From the IMG/VR virus record IMGVR_UViG_3300009507_000019, positions 1-63,937 of that record: a stretch of DNA of 63,937 bases. The stretch is one strand, 5' to 3'. Below the pieces are notes generated by a model. The model made no database searches. It had not been told where the DNA came from and saw only the letters and a list, made by a program, of their open reading frames with translations. Shown here piece by piece: positions 21,730 through 38,750 of the stretch (its first letter is position 1; each line of letters opens with the position of its first letter). Both the position numbers and the translations under genes were made by a program. This DNA is from a virus (taxonomy: Duplodnaviria > Caudoviricetes).

Positions 21730-22079
21730 TATGCTTTAGAACCTAACACTCTTCGTACGATATCATTATGGTTGAACTCTGCCCAATACAACTCGAACGC
21801 AACCCCATCTTTGGTACCTTCAAACTGGTGAATCTGACCCGGCTTTACCTGAGTATACTCACCTGCCTTTAGAACTGTTTCATCGACCAGACCGTCTTGG
21901 TCTCCATCTTGCCAGACGCGTACTATCATCTCGCCGGACTCACAGAAGAATCCATTCCACTTATATTCGTGTAGATGTTCCGAACACTTGAAACCTTTCT
22001 TAAACTCTATTCTATGGAACTCTAGTACACCGTTTGCTGCGACTAGTTCTGTTTGTCCCCACAATTTCCCTGCTTTCAT
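21729..22079 (-). CDS. Cupin-domain protein
   Basis: GKLWG, CSEHLHEYKWNGF, VKPGQIHQF, ELYW. Confidence 0.8.
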   Translation of the reverse strand: MKAGKLWGQTELVAANGVLEFHRIEFKKGFKCSEHLHEYKWNGFFCESGEMIVRVWQDGDQDGLVDETVLKAGEYTQVKPGQIHQFEGTKDGVAFELYWAEFNHNDIVRRVLGSKA

Positions 22080-22315
22080 AACAACTCCCTCAATTCAGTA
22101 TAACCACCAATATAATTCCACTGGTCTTCTTCTACGGTAAAGATCTGCGGAACCGTCCGAAACTCTTGACCCGCGACTTCCATAAGACGATCTTGTTCCG
22201 CAGGGGCAACCTGCGTCAAACAGAGATATTCATAATGGAGTTGTTTATCGGTACAGAGTTGTTTTGCCTGTTTACAATACCCACAAGCTGGAGTTCCTAA
22301 AATAACGTATTTCAT
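22076..22315 (-). CDS. nrdC: Glutaredoxin
   Basis: CGYC, RTVPQIF, YIGGYTEL. Confidence 0.9.
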   Translation of the reverse strand: MKYVILGTPACGYCKQAKQLCTDKQLHYEYLCLTQVAPAEQDRLMEVAGQEFRTVPQIFTVEEDQWNYIGGYTELRELL

Positions 22316-22354
22316 AAGATCACCTTTTCAATTCACTTGTTATATCTAGACAAT

Positions 22355-22382
22355 AAAAAAGAGAGGGTTTTTATGCCCTCTC
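22355..22382 (-). terminator. Rho-independent terminator after the hsp20 operon
   Basis: GAGAGGG...CCCTCTC followed by T6. Confidence 0.8.
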
Positions 22383-22392
22383 TCCATACTAC

Positions 22393-22683
22393 TTAGCTAC
22401 TGGTCTTTTCACTTTTCTCATCATCATGATCGTCTGTTTTTTCGACCCAGAACTGCTTTATCTCAAAATTGATTTTGTAATCAACTTCAGGCAGCATGGG
22501 CTTATGAACGACACTGAGTAACTCACGAAGTTCTTGATCGAACTCCCTTTGTAACTCAAGTTGAGAAACATGCAGTAGATCCGAAGACAAACGTCTTGCA
22601 GTTACTGTCAGTTCTTCAATGTCGCTAGCAGTCGCAAATGAAGAGAGGAAAGTTAGTCCAACCAAGATTAGACTTTTCCTCAT
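22393..22683 (-). CDS. Small secreted protein with TonB-box-like motif
   Basis: Signal peptide ending SFATA, then SDIEELTVTARR; SD GGAGGAG. Confidence 0.7.
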   Translation of the reverse strand: MRKSLILVGLTFLSSFATASDIEELTVTARRLSSDLLHVSQLELQREFDQELRELLSVVHKPMLPEVDYKINFEIKQFWVEKTDDHDDEKSEKTSS

Positions 22684-22697
22684 GATACTCCTCCGAG

Positions 22698-23135
22698 TTA
22701 TCCTATTTGGATGTTACGGGGACGCTTCTCTTCCGGAAGTTCTACTTTCAGTTTAATGACTAGTAGTCCATCCAAAAAGTCAGCTCCATCTACAACAACA
22801 TGTTCTGACAATCTAAAGGTTCTTTGGAACTTCTTCGTTGATATTCCCTTGTGGATATACTCACGATTATTATCGCTTTCATCGACGGTCTCACGACCTT
22901 GGGCTACAACAAAAAGAATCCCTTCGCGTACTTCTACGGTCAGATCTTCTTTTTTATATCCCGCCAAAGCGAGTTCAACACTAAACTCATCTTCAGAATG
23001 ACGAACGACATTGTGCGGAGGATAGAGTTTTCCATTTGAGCCATTGGCTACATCTGAAAGTTTCTCTATTTCCGACCATACGTGGTCAAATCCAATAAAG
23101 TGCGAACGTGGGAAAGTAAATGCTTTAGTTACCAT
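22698..23135 (-). CDS. hsp20: Small heat-shock protein Hsp20 (IbpA-like)
   Basis: IGFD, YPPHNV, ELALAG, YIHKGISTKKFQRTFRL, DGLL, PEEKRPR. Confidence 0.95.
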   Translation of the reverse strand: MVTKAFTFPRSHFIGFDHVWSEIEKLSDVANGSNGKLYPPHNVVRHSEDEFSVELALAGYKKEDLTVEVREGILFVVAQGRETVDESDNNREYIHKGISTKKFQRTFRLSEHVVVDGADFLDGLLVIKLKVELPEEKRPRNIQIG

Positions 23136-23197
23136 AACGGTTTCTCCTTTTATTAAAGCGAGGTGTTGTTAGTGTGACCGGAACCATTCCGCATCAC
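23136..23197 (-). promoter_or_regulatory. ROSE-like RNA thermometer in the hsp20 leader
   Basis: CUC-G-CUUU/AAAGGAG hairpin with bulged G (UCGCU signature) covering the SD, preceded by a second hairpin. Confidence 0.65.
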
Positions 23198-23202
23198 GAG
23201 TG

Positions 23203-23233
23203 TATTTATAACATATTTTTACTGTAAAAGCAA
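23203..23233 (-). promoter_or_regulatory. Overlapping late (TATAAATA) and sigma70-like (TTGCTT-17-TATAAA) promoter for hsp20
   Basis: TATTTATA at 23203-23210; AAGCAA at 23228-23233. Confidence 0.65.
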
Positions 23234-23258
23234 GTAATGTTACATTTTTTTTACAGTA

Positions 23259-23792
23259 TTACCACGGTACCATAGTATCCAATATGTTTTTAGGATCGGT
23301 TTCTCCATAGGGATCGTCGCTTGCATTATCCTGATAGCCGGGTTCTACCCATGACTGGACAACTTCCATATCATTTATCAGTACTGCATATCGCCACGAT
23401 CTTTGACCGAATCCGATATTGTCTTTATTTACGAGCATTCCCATTTGGCGAGTGAACTGTGCAGATCCGTCAGGTAGAACCTTAACGTTTTCTAGACCCT
23501 GATCCTTTGCCCATGCGTTCATCACGAATGAATCGTTTACTGACATACAGTAGATTTCATCAACACCCGCAGCTCGGAATTGGGGATACAACTCCTCAAA
23601 GCCAGGCAATTGATAGGTCGAACACGTTGGAGTAAATGCGCCAGGCAGAGAGAAAAGAACTGTTTTCTTGCCTTTAAATAATGACTCTGTTGTGACGTTC
23701 TCCCACTTGTGACTTACTCCGTTGATAGGACAGACTGCTGTTGAGTCTGGAACACGGGTCATAAGGGAAACACTTGGTACATCTGTTCTCAT
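23259..23792 (-). CDS. Peroxiredoxin (Prx5-like)
   Basis: LPGAFTPTCS, SVNDSFVMNAW, RSWRYA. Confidence 0.95.
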   Translation of the reverse strand: MRTDVPSVSLMTRVPDSTAVCPINGVSHKWENVTTESLFKGKKTVLFSLPGAFTPTCSTYQLPGFEELYPQFRAAGVDEIYCMSVNDSFVMNAWAKDQGLENVKVLPDGSAQFTRQMGMLVNKDNIGFGQRSWRYAVLINDMEVVQSWVEPGYQDNASDDPYGETDPKNILDTMVPW

Positions 23793-35892: not shown

Positions 35893-37023
35893 ATGATACT
35901 AACACACACAGACGCGTTATACGCTGCAAATGCATTCGAGGAGTTCTTCGGTAGTATCGAAAGAATCGACGAATACATGCGTATGGTAAAGATGGAGAGG
36001 ATGGCAGAGTTTCCTCCCGCATTGCCTGGCATGGGCCCTGAAGAAGATCTCTTCAACAACTTCGATATCCATCCGTCTGAGATGGAGTTTACTATCATTG
36101 ACACTGCGTCATACAAGTTCATGAACTACATGGAGATCGTCACCTCTGCCCCTGTAGAGAAGTCAATCCCCGGCAAGACCATGAAGTGGATAATCAAAGA
36201 GAAGAACACCGACATGGTTGCGGGTATGATTCGACTCGGTTCTCCTACCATTAATAGTAAACCACGCAACGACTGGTTGGGTAATCCCCTCGACAGTCTA
36301 AACCCTAAGATCATGGAGAGGTTCAACAACTCTGCAATCATGGGGTTCAACATCGTACCTACACAACCATTTGGATTTAACTATCTGGGTGGTAAGTTAC
36401 TGGCTGCAATCTGTTGCAGTCACTTTACACGTGATGCACTCAACAAGAAGTATGATTCTAACTTCTGTATGTTTGAGACCACATCACTATATGGTTCAAC
36501 AAAGTCTGCCTCGCAGTATGATGGTATGAAACCATTTCTGCGATTCAACGGTTTGACAGACTCAAACTTCTTGCCACTAATCAATGACAACACTTTCCGC
36601 AGACTGAGTGATTGGTTCATTGATAAGAACGGTGGTGAACCCTTGGTTCCTGTGGATGCATCCTCTCGCAAACTCAAGACACAGACCAAGATGGCATCGA
36701 TCATCAAAGCCTCTCTCAAAGTTCATGATGATGTTGCCTATAAGAAGTTCTGTCAAACCTACGATAATGCAAAGGATCTGACTGAACGAAAACGTTCTTT
36801 CGTATCCACGTATGGTTATGATAATGTACCTCAGTATCTAAACCTCGAAACAGATACATTGATCAAGAAAGAAAACTACGACAGGTTCTCTCTTGAGAAT
36901 GTTACTACATGGTGGAAGAAGAACGCCACCAAACGTTACGACAAACTAAAATCTGAAGGTCGGTTGAGACGTACCGTAGAAACTTGGAACGTCAACGCAG
37001 ATGATATCGATATAATTAGGTGA
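35893..37023 (+). CDS. DUF4338 (DruA-like) protein, probable Mom-like GNAT fold
   Basis: IPGK..KWII.E, GMIRLGSP, PTQPFGFNYLGGKLLA, FETTSLYG, SQYDG..PFLRFNGLT. Confidence 0.7.
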   Translation: MILTHTDALYAANAFEEFFGSIERIDEYMRMVKMERMAEFPPALPGMGPEEDLFNNFDIHPSEMEFTIIDTASYKFMNYMEIVTSAPVEKSIPGKTMKWIIKEKNTDMVAGMIRLGSPTINSKPRNDWLGNPLDSLNPKIMERFNNSAIMGFNIVPTQPFGFNYLGGKLLAAICCSHFTRDALNKKYDSNFCMFETTSLYGSTKSASQYDGMKPFLRFNGLTDSNFLPLINDNTFRRLSDWFIDKNGGEPLVPVDASSRKLKTQTKMASIIKASLKVHDDVAYKKFCQTYDNAKDLTERKRSFVSTYGYDNVPQYLNLETDTLIKKENYDRFSLENVTTWWKKNATKRYDKLKSEGRLRRTVETWNVNADDIDIIR

Positions 37024-37029
37024 TATATT

Positions 37030-37413
37030 ATGATTACAGATTTCTGTGTTATATGCGGAACAAAAGATAATCTTCATAACCATCATATTGTTTGTAAGAA
37101 AAGTGAACTAAAACCAATATCTGGTGATTACGATCATTATACAAACCTCCTGACTCTTTGTGGAGAACATCATGGATGGATTCATGGTGTTAAACCTAAC
37201 AGGTTTAATAACTGGTCTGAACTAAAAAAACTAGGAATAGAGAGTGCAAAAAGAAGAGGAGTCAAGTTTGGCGCACCAAGAAAAATAGACGATAAAAAGG
37301 TTCATGACTTATGGTTATCGGGAAGGAGTGCTATAGAAATTGCTGAAGAGTTAGGTGTCGCTCGCGCAAGTGTGTATAGGTATTTGTCTTTATTCAAAAA
37401 ACAAGGATTTTAA
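37030..37413 (+). CDS. HNH endonuclease fused to a Hin/resolvase-type arm and HTH
   Basis: CVICG..NLHNHH...NLLTLCGEHHGWIH; AKRRGVKFGAPRK; SAIEIAEELGVARASVYRYL. Confidence 0.8.
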   Translation: MITDFCVICGTKDNLHNHHIVCKKSELKPISGDYDHYTNLLTLCGEHHGWIHGVKPNRFNNWSELKKLGIESAKRRGVKFGAPRKIDDKKVHDLWLSGRSAIEIAEELGVARASVYRYLSLFKKQGF

Positions 37414-37415
37414 AA

Positions 37416-38081
37416 ATGGCACAGTCGGATAGGTTAAGAGAGATACAGAGAAACTCGGGGGGTGGTAAGACCACCTACGCTGAGGGTGAGAAGACCGAGA
37501 CTAAGGTTGCGGATGCAGTCCAACATGTTATGAAAACATTGAAGAAGAAGTATCCGGATCTAGAGTTTGATCACATGAAGAGACATCCCAAGCGTATGTT
37601 CTCCGAATCTATTGGTGCGACAGACTGGATGCCTTCCAATGAAAAATCTTTTGTGAATCCAGACGGTGGTACCATATGGGTCAAAAAGGTCTACAATGAT
37701 GGAGCTACATGGTACCCTATCCTCACCTCAGAAGCAAAGAAACAAGGTACTAATGACAGACTGATTAAAGAGGGTATGAAGAGACAGGCACAGGGCAATG
37801 CGATTGAACGTGCGTACAAGAACATCGAAGAGTTTAGATGTCTGTATGAGAGATACAATTGGTTCCCATACTTCATTTTTTGTGAGGGGTGTGACTTTGA
37901 CAAAGGATCTTCTATCCTTGACCGTATGGATGCAATGACACGTTACCGACCTAGGAATACTACCTATCTCTTCGAACGACACCAACTGGTGTCCCTGTAC
38001 ATCCGCCCAGAAGGATTCAGGCCCGAGTTTATATATAACACCATGCTGGATGCAGCCGAAAAAATACTAACCCAAATATAA
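37416..38081 (+). CDS. EcoRI-family type II restriction endonuclease
   Basis: QSDRL, NPDGG, EAKKQG, GNAIERAYKN and FPYFIFCEG match EcoRI QSNRL, PDGG, EAKHQG, GNAIERSHKN and FPYVLFLEG. Confidence 0.88.
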   Translation: MAQSDRLREIQRNSGGGKTTYAEGEKTETKVADAVQHVMKTLKKKYPDLEFDHMKRHPKRMFSESIGATDWMPSNEKSFVNPDGGTIWVKKVYNDGATWYPILTSEAKKQGTNDRLIKEGMKRQAQGNAIERAYKNIEEFRCLYERYNWFPYFIFCEGCDFDKGSSILDRMDAMTRYRPRNTTYLFERHQLVSLYIRPEGFRPEFIYNTMLDAAEKILTQI

Positions 38082-38090
38082 GGAAAACCA

Positions 38091-38750
38091 TTGAAAGTAA
38101 AATTGGTAAGTCACTCACAAGCACCAGACTTTAACGAGTCTGCATTAGATCTAGTGGCATATTGTGCACGTGTATCTAACCCGTCTAATCAGAACAACAA
38201 AGAGACGAACGAGAAACTGGTAAAGTATCTCATGAAACATAAACACTGGTCTCCTCTAGAGATGGTTAGTGTCTGTCTGGAAGTAGAAACGACACGAGAT
38301 ATCGCACGTCAGTTGTTGCGCCATCGTAGTTTTAGTTTCCAAGAGTTCAGTCAACGTTATGCGGATCCGTTAAAAGACTTAGAGATGGTACCTCGCGAAG
38401 CACGATTTCAAGATCCAAAGAACCGACAGAATAGTATACCTATTGATCAAGATGACGAATCTCAAAGAAGGATCAATGAAGATTTTCGGATGAAACAGAT
38501 GAAACTTATTCATGAGTCCAAACAGGTTTACAACTGGGCAATCGATAATGGTATTGCAAAGGAACAGGCACGTGCTGTTCTACCAGAGGGTAATACTGTG
38601 TCTAGGTTATATGTGAATGGAACGTTACGGTCGTGGATACACTACATTGAGTTACGTAGTGCGAACGGCACACAGTTAGAACACATAGACCTCGCAATCG
38701 AAGTTGGACGTGTGATCGCTAAAATCTTCCCTTTAACCCCACAGGATTGA
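38091..38750 (+). CDS. thyX: Flavin-dependent thymidylate synthase ThyX
   Basis: HWSPLE, RQLLRHRSFSFQEFSQRY, EQARAVLP, TQLEH; TTG start with SD AAGGA. Confidence 0.96.
   Translation: MKVKLVSHSQAPDFNESALDLVAYCARVSNPSNQNNKETNEKLVKYLMKHKHWSPLEMVSVCLEVETTRDIARQLLRHRSFSFQEFSQRYADPLKDLEMVPREARFQDPKNRQNSIPIDQDDESQRRINEDFRMKQMKLIHESKQVYNWAIDNGIAKEQARAVLPEGNTVSRLYVNGTLRSWIHYIELRSANGTQLEHIDLAIEVGRVIAKIFPLTPQD

What the first reader, a model, noticed from the sequence alone, without database searches (positions are those of the whole stretch)
22393..22683. Secreted mini-protein carrying a free TonB box: possible TonB-jamming superinfection-exclusion factor
Seen: a Sec signal peptide followed immediately by SDIEELTVTARR, then about 65 residues with no plug or beta-barrel. 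It is co-transcribed with hsp20. Known: (L/I)EE(I/V)xVTA(R/Q)R is the N-terminal TonB box of TonB-dependent receptors in marine Gamma/Alphaproteobacteria, and TonB-box peptides can compete for TonB. Inference: a periplasmic decoy that blocks TonB-dependent phage or bacteriocin entry, or rewires nutrient uptake. It also hints at the host group and receptor type.
Basis: partly seen in the sequence, partly recalled or inferred. Interest (0 to 1): 0.75.

Follow-up and report, generated by a model that had tools for sequence, protein, structure and literature searches.

The report
Phage secreted mini-protein with TonB box
A marine T4-like phage encodes a small exported protein whose first residues copy the short handle that bacterial outer-membrane nutrient transporters use to engage the TonB energy system, so it may jam that system, though binding has not been shown.

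Summary
ORF 22393-22683 (minus strand, 96 aa) has a textbook Sec-type signal peptide ending A-T-A. Residues 2-12 of the predicted mature protein are DIEELTVTARR.

The motif is a real TonB box. A back-translated scan found it in 115 bacterial stretches. At least 96 sit about 40 residues into long proteins and are followed by a plug start. Ten of 10 sampled proteins are Pfam Plug plus TonB-dependent barrel. None of the 115 record titles is cyanobacterial.

A TonB-box profile built from 18 unselected transporters ranks this ORF first of 1051 open frames in the window.

The family is tiny, about a dozen marine phage contigs, always between hsp20 and glutaredoxin. It is the fastest-evolving protein in its block, yet the motif is under strong purifying selection.

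Nothing after the motif resembles a plug.

TonB binding, the decoy role and superinfection exclusion remain inference. Against them:
- AlphaFold2 models the motif as part of a long helix.
- The host is unknown.
- A conserved late-type promoter motif precedes the operon.

No such phage protein turned up in four literature searches. Best reading: a periplasmic TonB-box mimic (confidence about 0.4).

The parts
23203..23210 (-). TATAAATA motif 67 nt upstream of the hsp20 start. It looks like a T4-type late promoter (that consensus is recalled, not from a call).
   Evidence: 8 matches in the window, all on the minus strand, against 2.33 expected; 0 of 100 shuffles reach 8; the motif is kept 66-71 nt upstream of hsp20 in L003, L005 and L009, although the sequence further upstream differs.
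22698..23135 (-). hsp20 (small heat-shock protein), first gene of the two-gene unit
   Evidence: Pfam HSP20, E 2.9e-15. PHROG 432, E 1.9e-33.
22688..22694 (-). Shine-Dalgarno GGAGGAG inside the 14-nt hsp20-ORF spacer
   Evidence: Read directly from the sequence. Invariant in 5 of 5 aligned loci.
22627..22683 (-). Codons 1-19: Sec-type signal peptide (MRK, hydrophobic core, A-T-A)
   Evidence: hydropathy, A at -3 and -1, no Cys. Nearly invariant at both protein and DNA level across relatives.
22591..22626 (-). Codons 20-31: SDIEELTVTARR, the TonB-box-like motif at the predicted mature N-terminus
   Evidence: the same motif in transporter N-termini. (unbiased profile, 13.3 bits, best in the window). 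(dN 0.035-0.21 against dS 0.62 to saturated).
22507..22590 (-). Codons 32-59: amphipathic segment predicted helical; RRL, H38, Q41, E47 and F48 are conserved
   Evidence: AlphaFold2 helix in both models. Conservation. Not plug-like.
22396..22506 (-). Codons 60-96: variable middle, a conserved W-V-E-x-T-D, and an acidic tail (DDEKS..TS). Modelled as disordered.
   Evidence: indels and divergence. (pLDDT under 50). (mature protein pI 4.63, net charge -9).
22358..22385 (-). Intrinsic-terminator-like hairpin followed by a T run; it ends the hsp20-ORF unit
   Evidence: 10-pair stem, the only such site in 21900-23500. Stem and T run conserved in all 5 aligned loci; the two loop differences fall outside the stem.

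Best explanation
The ORF encodes a small protein that the Sec pathway exports into the periplasm of the infected cell. After signal-peptide cleavage, the new N-terminus displays a TonB box identical to the commonest form found on TonB-dependent transporters of marine Gamma- and Alphaproteobacteria.

The proposed mechanism is as follows. This free TonB box binds the C-terminal domain of the host's TonB in the way a transporter's box does. TonB is scarce relative to transporters, so the mini-protein would compete with them. That would damp or shut down TonB-energised traffic across the outer membrane: siderophores, B12, polysaccharides, and TonB-dependent phages and bacteriocins.

Shown:
- The gene, its layout and its conservation.
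- The signal-peptide features.
- The identity of the motif with genuine TonB boxes.
- The selection acting on the motif.

Inferred:
- Cleavage of the signal peptide.
- Binding to TonB.
- Competition with transporters.
- The benefit to the phage (exclusion of rivals, protection from bacteriocins, or saving proton-motive force).

The role of the 65 residues after the box is unknown.
For: Motif identity. The exact pattern occurs in 115 bacterial stretches. At least 96 of the 115 are followed by a plug start. Eighty of the 115 lie in ORFs of 550 aa or more, and 25 more are cut off by the locus end. The median distance from the start codon is 41 aa.

Ten of 10 proteins sampled at random from the 63 complete long ORFs carry Pfam Plug plus TonB_dep_Rec barrel. 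In these the Plug begins 14-15 residues after the motif starts.

Unselected set. Most of the 19 Plug-bearing proteins of one marine gammaproteobacterial MAG show the same x-[DE]-E-I-x-V-T-A-R-[RK] box. A profile of 18 of them picks this ORF as the top hit of 1051 open stretches.

Placement. The motif lies at +2 to +12 after an A-T-A cleavage site. Colicin M carries its TonB box at positions 2-6 (passage read in PMC11658791).

Selection. The ORF has the highest dN/dS (0.36) of the 11 genes compared in the block; the others range 0.02-0.27. The motif codons run at roughly 0.06-0.18. The most distant relatives keep SDMEDMSITARR.

Precedent. A TonB-box pentapeptide reduced TonB-dependent uptake, colicin killing and phi80 infection. 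TonB-box peptide conjugates inhibit Pseudomonas aeruginosa growth. TonB is described as limiting relative to transporters (passages read in PMC9841981).

Phages are known to block TonB-dependent transporters from the periplasmic side with small exported proteins, T5 Llp and the Cor family (passages read in PMC9586334).
Against: - No binding evidence of any kind exists.
- The AlphaFold2 model of the mature protein (7-row alignment) places the motif in one continuous helix, residues 2-40. pLDDT is about 90 over the first 30 residues. That is not the free extended strand expected of a TonB box. Lone-helix predictions from shallow alignments are weak evidence.
- The hydrophobic spacing through residues 22-59 also fits an amphipathic helix.
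- The strict 10-residue motif occurs in two unrelated, non-secreted viral contexts: a 142-aa frame and a tape measure protein. The motif alone is therefore not proof.
- The host is unknown. The nearest phages are Kyanoviridae-like, and prx and regA show DNA similarity to cyanophages.
- From recall, marine picocyanobacteria mostly lack TonB systems. The Synechococcus elongatus control genome gave no TonB_C or Plug hit.
- A conserved late-type promoter motif precedes the operon. From recall, late expression is not typical of exclusion factors.
- Nothing explains the 65 residues after the box.
Confidence: 0.4

Rival explanations
1. It is a small exported envelope protein whose function has nothing to do with TonB. 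It could be an amphipathic or coiled-coil helix acting on the membrane, the cell wall or lysis timing. In size and layout it resembles the small N-terminally anchored periplasmic proteins of T4 (RI, Sp; recalled). On this reading the TonB-box resemblance is a relic of a captured transporter 5' end, or is convergent, and has been reused as part of the helix.
For: - AlphaFold2 models residues 2-40 of the mature protein as one helix with pLDDT about 90. The full-length model also has a helix at 19-59.
- The hydrophobic moment of the motif segment is higher for helical than for strand periodicity, 1.24 against 0.82.
- Conservation extends past the box: R-R-L, H38, Q41, E47, F48.
- A late-type promoter motif fits a lysis-stage function.
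Against: - It gives no reason why ten consecutive residues should equal the commonest proteobacterial TonB box, and at the same distance from a signal peptide.
- There is no PHROG or Pfam hit to RI, Sp, holin or spanin families.
- No partner lipoprotein gene lies nearby.
- Threonine and valine at four of five consecutive positions are poor helix formers (general knowledge).
Confidence: 0.3
2. The hydrophobic N-terminus is not cleaved and acts as a signal anchor. The protein is then tethered to the inner membrane, and its TonB box is displayed beside TonB-ExbBD. This would be a membrane-bound variant of the decoy, or a modulator of the ExbBD motor.
For: - The hydrophobic segment and its flanks are almost invariant, even at synonymous sites. 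dS is 0.15-0.24, against 0.6 or more in the rest of the gene. That is unusual for a disposable signal peptide.
- From recall, T4 Sp and RI use N-terminal anchors.
Against: - A at -3 and -1, followed by S-D, is a standard signal-peptidase I site.
- The hydrophobic core is only about 13 residues, short for a stable anchor.
- The low dS extends into the non-coding flanks, so it may reflect regulatory or recombination constraints instead.
Confidence: 0.1
3. The protein is released at lysis and acts on neighbouring cells like the translocation domain of a TonB-dependent bacteriocin. It would bind a transporter from outside and use its TonB box to be pulled in.
For: - An N-terminal TonB box followed by a poorly ordered region resembles the layout described for colicin M (passage read in PMC11658791).
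- The variable middle of the protein could be a receptor-binding part under diversifying pressure.
Against: - From recall, colicins lack Sec signal peptides.
- Seventy-seven residues leave no room for a known killing domain.
- No immunity gene is evident nearby.
- There is no family hit.
Confidence: 0.05
4. It is a non-functional leftover of a transporter gene's 5' end picked up by the phage.
For: - The similarity to transporters stops right after the box.
- The family is confined to one small phage clade.
Against: - The frame stays open in all 13 coding sequences compared (6 distinct sequences among the 12 analysed).
- dN/dS is 0.36 overall and far lower on the motif.
- The ribosome-binding site and terminator are conserved.
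- Synteny is kept across phages whose neighbouring genes have dS of 0.2-1.5.
Confidence: 0.03

Closest known systems
N-terminal TonB box of TonB-dependent outer-membrane transporters (Pfam Plug PF07715 plus TonB_dep_Rec barrel PF00593)
   Same: The ten-residue motif is identical. It also sits near the start of the mature, periplasm-facing polypeptide.
   Different: The protein has no plug and no barrel. It is 96 aa in all, and the sequence after the box is unrelated to the plug start. It would be soluble or membrane-tethered in the periplasm, not in the outer membrane.
Phage superinfection-exclusion lipoproteins Llp (T5) and Cor (T1, phi80)
   Same: They are small phage proteins exported to the periplasmic side that disable TonB-dependent transporters (passages read in PMC9586334).
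   Different: - Llp and Cor are lipoproteins that bind the transporter's plug. According to that paper, Llp does not touch the TonB box.
- This protein has no cysteine or lipobox and carries a TonB box itself, so its presumed target is TonB.
- It shows no sequence relation to them.
TonB boxes of TonB-dependent bacteriocins such as colicin M
   Same: A TonB box lies at the very N-terminus of a non-transporter protein, positions 2-6 in colicin M (passage read in PMC11658791).
   Different: From recall, bacteriocins come from outside and use the box for import, have receptor-binding and killing domains, and lack a Sec signal. Here the protein is made inside the cell and exported.
Synthetic TonB-box peptides and over-produced transporter N-terminal domains used as TonB inhibitors
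   Same: Same proposed mode of action: competition with transporters for scarce TonB (passages read in PMC9841981).
   Different: Those are laboratory constructs. This would be a natural, virus-encoded counterpart, and its activity is untested.

Membership tests
TonB-box-bearing ligands of TonB (functional class) | Sequence matching the TonB-box consensus of transporters | tested here: met
   - Exact match to a pattern found in 115 bacterial stretches, at least 96 of them transporter N-termini.
- Ten of 10 sampled proteins are Plug plus barrel.
- An unbiased profile from 18 transporters gives 13.3 bits, E 0.0036, the best of 1051 stretches.
TonB-box-bearing ligands of TonB (functional class) | The box is exposed in the periplasm on a flexible N-terminal segment | tested here: inconclusive
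   - Signal-peptide features and the position at +2 to +12 fit.
- No signal-peptide predictor was available.
- AlphaFold2 models the segment as a helix with pLDDT about 90.
TonB-box-bearing ligands of TonB (functional class) | Physical binding to the TonB C-terminal domain by strand addition | not testable with these tools
   This needs a binding assay or a solved complex. The one complex-prediction job is described under Tried and rejected.
TonB-dependent transporter | Plug domain after the TonB box | tested here: not met
   - No Pfam Plug hit.
- The post-motif part scores -2.4 bits or nothing against a plug-start profile, and 205 of 300 shuffles score as high or higher.
TonB-dependent transporter | 22-strand beta-barrel of several hundred residues | tested here: not met
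   - The protein is 96 aa.
- The search for longer forms found none: 217 candidates, none at E of 1 or better.
Llp/Cor superinfection-exclusion lipoproteins | Lipobox cysteine and sequence relation to the family | tested here: not met
   - The window's protein has no cysteine.
- No PHROG or Pfam family hit.
Sec/signal-peptidase I secreted proteins | Basic n-region, hydrophobic h-region, small residues at -3 and -1 | tested here: met
   MRK, a 13-residue hydrophobic core, and A-T-A before S-D. Judged by inspection only.
T4 RI/Sp-type small periplasmic proteins | Sequence relation to those families | tested here: not met
   No PHROG family at E of 0.01 or better. The similarity in size and layout is recalled, not tested.

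The most novel reading that the evidence does not exclude
A virus-encoded, Sec-exported TonB-box decoy. The phage copies the handle of its host's outer-membrane transporters onto a 9-kDa periplasmic protein and uses it to tie up TonB, switching off all TonB-energised import at once. The hypervariable remainder would reflect an arms race. This would also mark this Kyanoviridae-like clade as infecting transporter-rich marine proteobacteria rather than cyanobacteria. Together with the tape measure protein that carries two such boxes, it would suggest that TonB-box mimicry is a recurring phage strategy.
Probability: 0.35. Interest if true: 0.8.

Novelty: new variant of a known kind. Interest (0 to 1): 0.6.

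Why it matters
TonB is the single energy coupler for most high-affinity nutrient import in Gram-negative bacteria. It is also a proposed antibiotic target (PMC9841981, passages read).

A natural protein inhibitor built on TonB-box mimicry would be a new phage takeover or exclusion mechanism. It would differ from the receptor-jamming lipoproteins already known. It would also offer a ready scaffold for studying or blocking TonB.

In the sea, transporter-rich Gammaproteobacteria dominate polymer and iron uptake. Phage-imposed shutdown of TonB there would alter nutrient fluxes in infected cells.

The motif also gives a rare sequence-based host clue for an uncultured phage that is widespread in marine and estuarine samples. 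Fourteen runs hold at least half of the sampled words, among the 20 holding rows that come from 10 studies.

Tried and rejected
Complex prediction. I sent the mature mini-protein (alignment A2, residues 20-96) with the C-terminal domain (residues 118-210) of the TonB from an exbB-exbD-tonB operon. That operon lies in a marine gammaproteobacterial MAG that owns a transporter with the identical box. The verdict was 'no answer': score 0.00 against a mark of 0.32, and the controls were not run. This counts neither for nor against binding.

Family and relative searches for the ORF that found nothing useful:
- Pfam gave only a sub-threshold IMD hit.
- PHROGs gave none.
- tblastn against 50,697 phage records gave none.
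- The search for longer proteins gave none.
- PDB sequences gave none at E of 10 or better.
- The ESM Atlas best score was 0.82, which is chance level.
- The 1.84-billion-protein profile search returned two family members plus one spurious mucin-like repeat protein.

Structure. The full-length AlphaFold2 model was poor (pLDDT 57.6), so I ran no fold search.

Descent from a transporter beyond the box. This was rejected, because the post-motif part is not plug-like.

Other phage mini-proteins with the box. Two scans of viral contigs gave this family, one non-secreted frame, a tape measure protein and four off-frame chance hits. No second secreted family turned up.

Host clues:
- No tRNAs.
- No photosystem gene (PF00124) in the window, in two related fragments, or in the complete C48C1 genome; L135 was not held and so not searched.
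- The paper search for C48C1 gave nothing relevant.
- The host stays unknown.

Read laying. Only contigs were available. Parts of the stretch without cover mean nothing, and depth cannot rank genes.

Literature. Searches for a described phage TonB-box protein and for a TonB box in tape measure proteins found none. The library lacks most subscription journals, and supplements were closed.

Papers seen:
- PMC9841981, PMC11658791 and PMC9586334: passages only.
- All other papers: search listings only.

Recalled, not from any call:
- T4 RI, Sp and Imm properties.
- TATAAATA as the T4 late-promoter consensus.
- The absence of TonB systems from most marine picocyanobacteria.
- The absence of signal peptides from colicins.

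Full report
WHAT IS THERE

The window is a 63,937-base fragment of a virus record, about 35% complete by CheckV. It belongs to a T4-like phage. It encodes DNA polymerase, clamp and clamp loader, RegA, UvsX, UvsY, helicase and structural genes, almost all on the minus strand.

Its DNA polymerase is 58% identical to that of Phage C48C1 and at most 48% identical to those of cyanomyoviruses. C48C1 is classed in Kyanoviridae, and its record names no host.

The finding's ORF is at 22393-22683 on the minus strand and encodes 96 aa. It starts 14 nt after the hsp20 stop codon and has a GGAGGAG ribosome-binding site. The only terminator-like hairpin of the region follows it at 22385-22358. A glutaredoxin gene comes next.

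THE PROTEIN

Residues 1-19 have the three parts of a Sec signal peptide. These are a basic MRK, a 13-residue hydrophobic core, and A-T-A. There is no cysteine, so it is not a lipoprotein.

The predicted mature protein is 77 aa, with pI 4.6 and net charge about -9. It begins S-D-I-E-E-L-T-V-T-A-R-R. A segment predicted to be helical follows, up to residue 59. After that come a variable stretch and an acidic tail, both modelled as disordered.

IS THE MOTIF A TONB BOX?

I back-translated I-E-E-[LIVMF]-T-V-T-A-R-R and scanned one genome for each of 185,579 species. This gave 115 stretches. My rough arithmetic for uniform base composition expects about 3.

In frame, 96 of the 115 are followed within 20 residues by the plug-start signature under a strict pattern. 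Eighty of the 115 lie in ORFs of 550 aa or more, and 25 more are cut off by the locus end. The median distance from the start codon is 41 aa.

I drew 10 proteins at random from the 63 complete long ORFs. All 10 have Pfam Plug and TonB_dep_Rec barrel domains, with the Plug starting 14-15 residues after the motif starts.

By eye, four hits are clearly something else (L017, L069, L043, L059). A few more are uncertain.

By record title, 107 of the 115 are Proteobacteria, mostly Gamma and Alpha lineages. These include Halieaceae, Porticoccaceae, Spongiibacteraceae, Woeseiaceae, Lysobacterales, Steroidobacteraceae, Sphingomonadaceae and Rhodospirillaceae. None is a cyanobacterium.

To avoid circularity, I collected all 19 Plug-bearing proteins of one marine gammaproteobacterial MAG. 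I left out the one that carries the exact motif and built a profile of the 20 residues before the Plug from the other 18. I then scanned all 1051 six-frame open stretches of the window.

The ORF's motif was the top hit at 13.3 bits (E 0.0036). The next hit scored 5.9 bits.

The resemblance ends at the box. A profile of the 45 residues after the box in 98 transporters scores the phage protein no better than shuffles.

RELATIVES AND SELECTION

The family is small:
- 8 proteins in the 5.8-billion-protein set.
- 9 IMG/VR loci.
- 4 metagenome loci.
- 2 true hits in the 1.84-billion representative set.
- None in 50,697 phage records.

The sequences fall into three allele groups, at 100%, about 68% and about 53% protein identity to the window's protein. 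In the loci examined (in full; the ORF's flanks in the five loci) the gene sits between hsp20 and glutaredoxin.

C48C1 has hsp20 but not this gene.

Against two relatives, the ORF has the highest dN (0.22 and 0.30) and the highest dN/dS (0.36) of the 11 genes compared. The others range from 0.02 to 0.27.

Within the gene, the motif codons have dN of 0.035-0.21 against dS of 0.62 to saturated. The helix and tail change much faster.

The most distant group reads S-D-M-E-D-M-S-I-T-A-R-R. All its changes are conservative, and T-A-R-R-L is invariant.

The signal-peptide codons, the ribosome-binding site, the 3' end and the terminator are nearly identical at the DNA level across all groups. The middle of the gene is scrambled by substitutions and indels. 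I have no firm explanation for that pattern.

EXPRESSION CONTEXT

A TATAAATA motif lies 67 nt upstream of hsp20. It is kept at 66-71 nt in the other allele groups, although the sequence upstream of it differs.

The window has 8 copies of the motif, all on the coding strand, against 2.3 expected. Several lie 25-30 nt before ORFs in the structural-gene block (ORF map). From recall, this is the T4 late-promoter consensus, so the two-gene unit may be expressed late.

Two contigs from libraries labelled as RNA bridge the hsp20-ORF junction and end near the unit's borders:
- One is probably DNA. It is 783 nt and covers 22400-23182.
- The other comes from a relative about 92% identical. It is 719 nt.
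This is a weak hint and does not prove a single transcript.

The phage is widespread. Twenty run rows from 10 studies hold the stretch or part of it, and 14 of those runs hold at least half of the sampled words. They are marine, estuary and seawater metagenomes.

HOW IT MOST LIKELY WORKS

The simplest reading is that the box is kept for the same reason transporters keep it, which is to bind the TonB C-terminal domain. A soluble periplasmic protein with a free TonB box would compete with transporters.

Published work reports the following (passages read in PMC9841981):
- TonB is scarce relative to transporters.
- A TonB-box pentapeptide reduced TonB-dependent uptake, colicin killing and phi80 infection.
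- An over-produced transporter N-terminal domain had similar effects.
- TonB-box peptide conjugates inhibit Pseudomonas aeruginosa growth.

Phages already disable transporters from the periplasm with small exported proteins. However, Llp binds the plug and is a lipoprotein (PMC9586334). Colicin M shows that a TonB box at positions 2-6 of a protein is workable (PMC11658791).

The benefit to the phage is open. It could be exclusion of TonB-dependent rivals or bacteriocins, or shutting an energy drain. I put about 0.4 on the decoy mechanism.

WHAT SPEAKS AGAINST IT

- The AlphaFold2 model of the mature protein makes residues 2-40 one helix, with pLDDT near 90 over the first 30. The alignment is shallow (7 rows), and lone helices are often over-called. 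Still, it allows a rival reading: a helical envelope protein in which the box is a reused relic.
- The strict motif also occurs in two unrelated viral contexts.
- The host is unknown, and the nearest phages are cyanophage-like.
- No photosystem gene was found in the window, in two related fragments, or in the complete C48C1 genome. That is compatible with a non-cyanobacterial host, but for the fragments it proves little.
- Late expression would be unusual for exclusion.
- The complex prediction gave no verdict (see Tried and rejected).

COMPARISON AND NOVELTY

The protein is not a TonB-dependent transporter, because the plug and barrel tests were not met. It is not an Llp/Cor lipoprotein, because it has no lipobox and no sequence relation. 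It works, if at all, like a TonB-box competitor.

Four literature searches found no phage-encoded TonB-box protein. That library lacks most subscription journals, and supplements were closed.

I rate it a new variant of a known kind: TonB-box mimicry, known from bacteriocins and synthetic peptides, used here by a phage from inside the cell.

TOOLS NOT AVAILABLE

Noticed in passing
L162:178-4851 (+) and L163:585-5261 (-), residues about 925-965: A tape measure protein of about 1558 aa (PHROG tail-length tape measure hits) in two IMG/VR contigs carries two tandem TonB-box-like motifs about 20 residues apart: IEEVTVTARR, then IQEVQVTAM. From recall, tape measure proteins enter the periplasm during injection. 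This could therefore be a way for a phage to engage TonB. No paper linking a TonB box to a tape measure protein in this sense was found.
   Followed up: partly
window 35893-38750 (+): A block of plus-strand genes sits in an otherwise minus-strand genome. It includes a DruA-like protein (35893-37023, Pfam DruA, E 8.7e-08) and an EcoRI-like endonuclease (37416-38081, E 2e-18). It may be an inserted defence or restriction island.
   Followed up: no
window 23259-23792 (-): The peroxiredoxin gene next to hsp20 has no orthologue in the syntenic loci L005 and L009, where the JmjC-like gene is followed directly by hsp20. It shows 66-75% DNA identity to peroxiredoxin genes of cyanophages and C48C1. It looks like a recent insertion from the cyanophage gene pool.
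   Followed up: partly
window 23136-23202 (-): The 67-nt leader between the TATAAATA motif and the hsp20 start is highly conserved across allele groups and contains an inverted repeat (GTGA..CGGAA / TTCCG..TCAC). It could be a regulatory RNA structure for the heat-shock gene.
   Followed up: no
window 22300-22760 (-), alignment A4: The ORF's flanks are nearly identical at the DNA level in all allele groups. These flanks are the hsp20 3' end, the ribosome-binding site, the signal-peptide codons, the last 30 nt, the terminator and the spacer to glutaredoxin. The middle 200 nt is heavily diverged, with indels. The gene behaves like a variable cassette between fixed ends.
   Followed up: partly
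L158:6489-6914 (+) and L043: The same non-secreted frame of about 140 aa carrying IEELTVTARR occurs in a viral contig and in a proteobacterial MAG, probably a prophage gene. It shows that the motif can occur outside transporters.
   Followed up: no
window, 8 sites (1578, 3007, 8540, 11054, 23203, 35820, 42742, 60391; all minus strand): TATAAATA is over-represented, with 8 copies against 2.3 expected, and strictly on the coding strand. Several copies lie 25-30 nt upstream of ORF starts in the ORF map, consistent with T4-type late promoters.
   Followed up: partly
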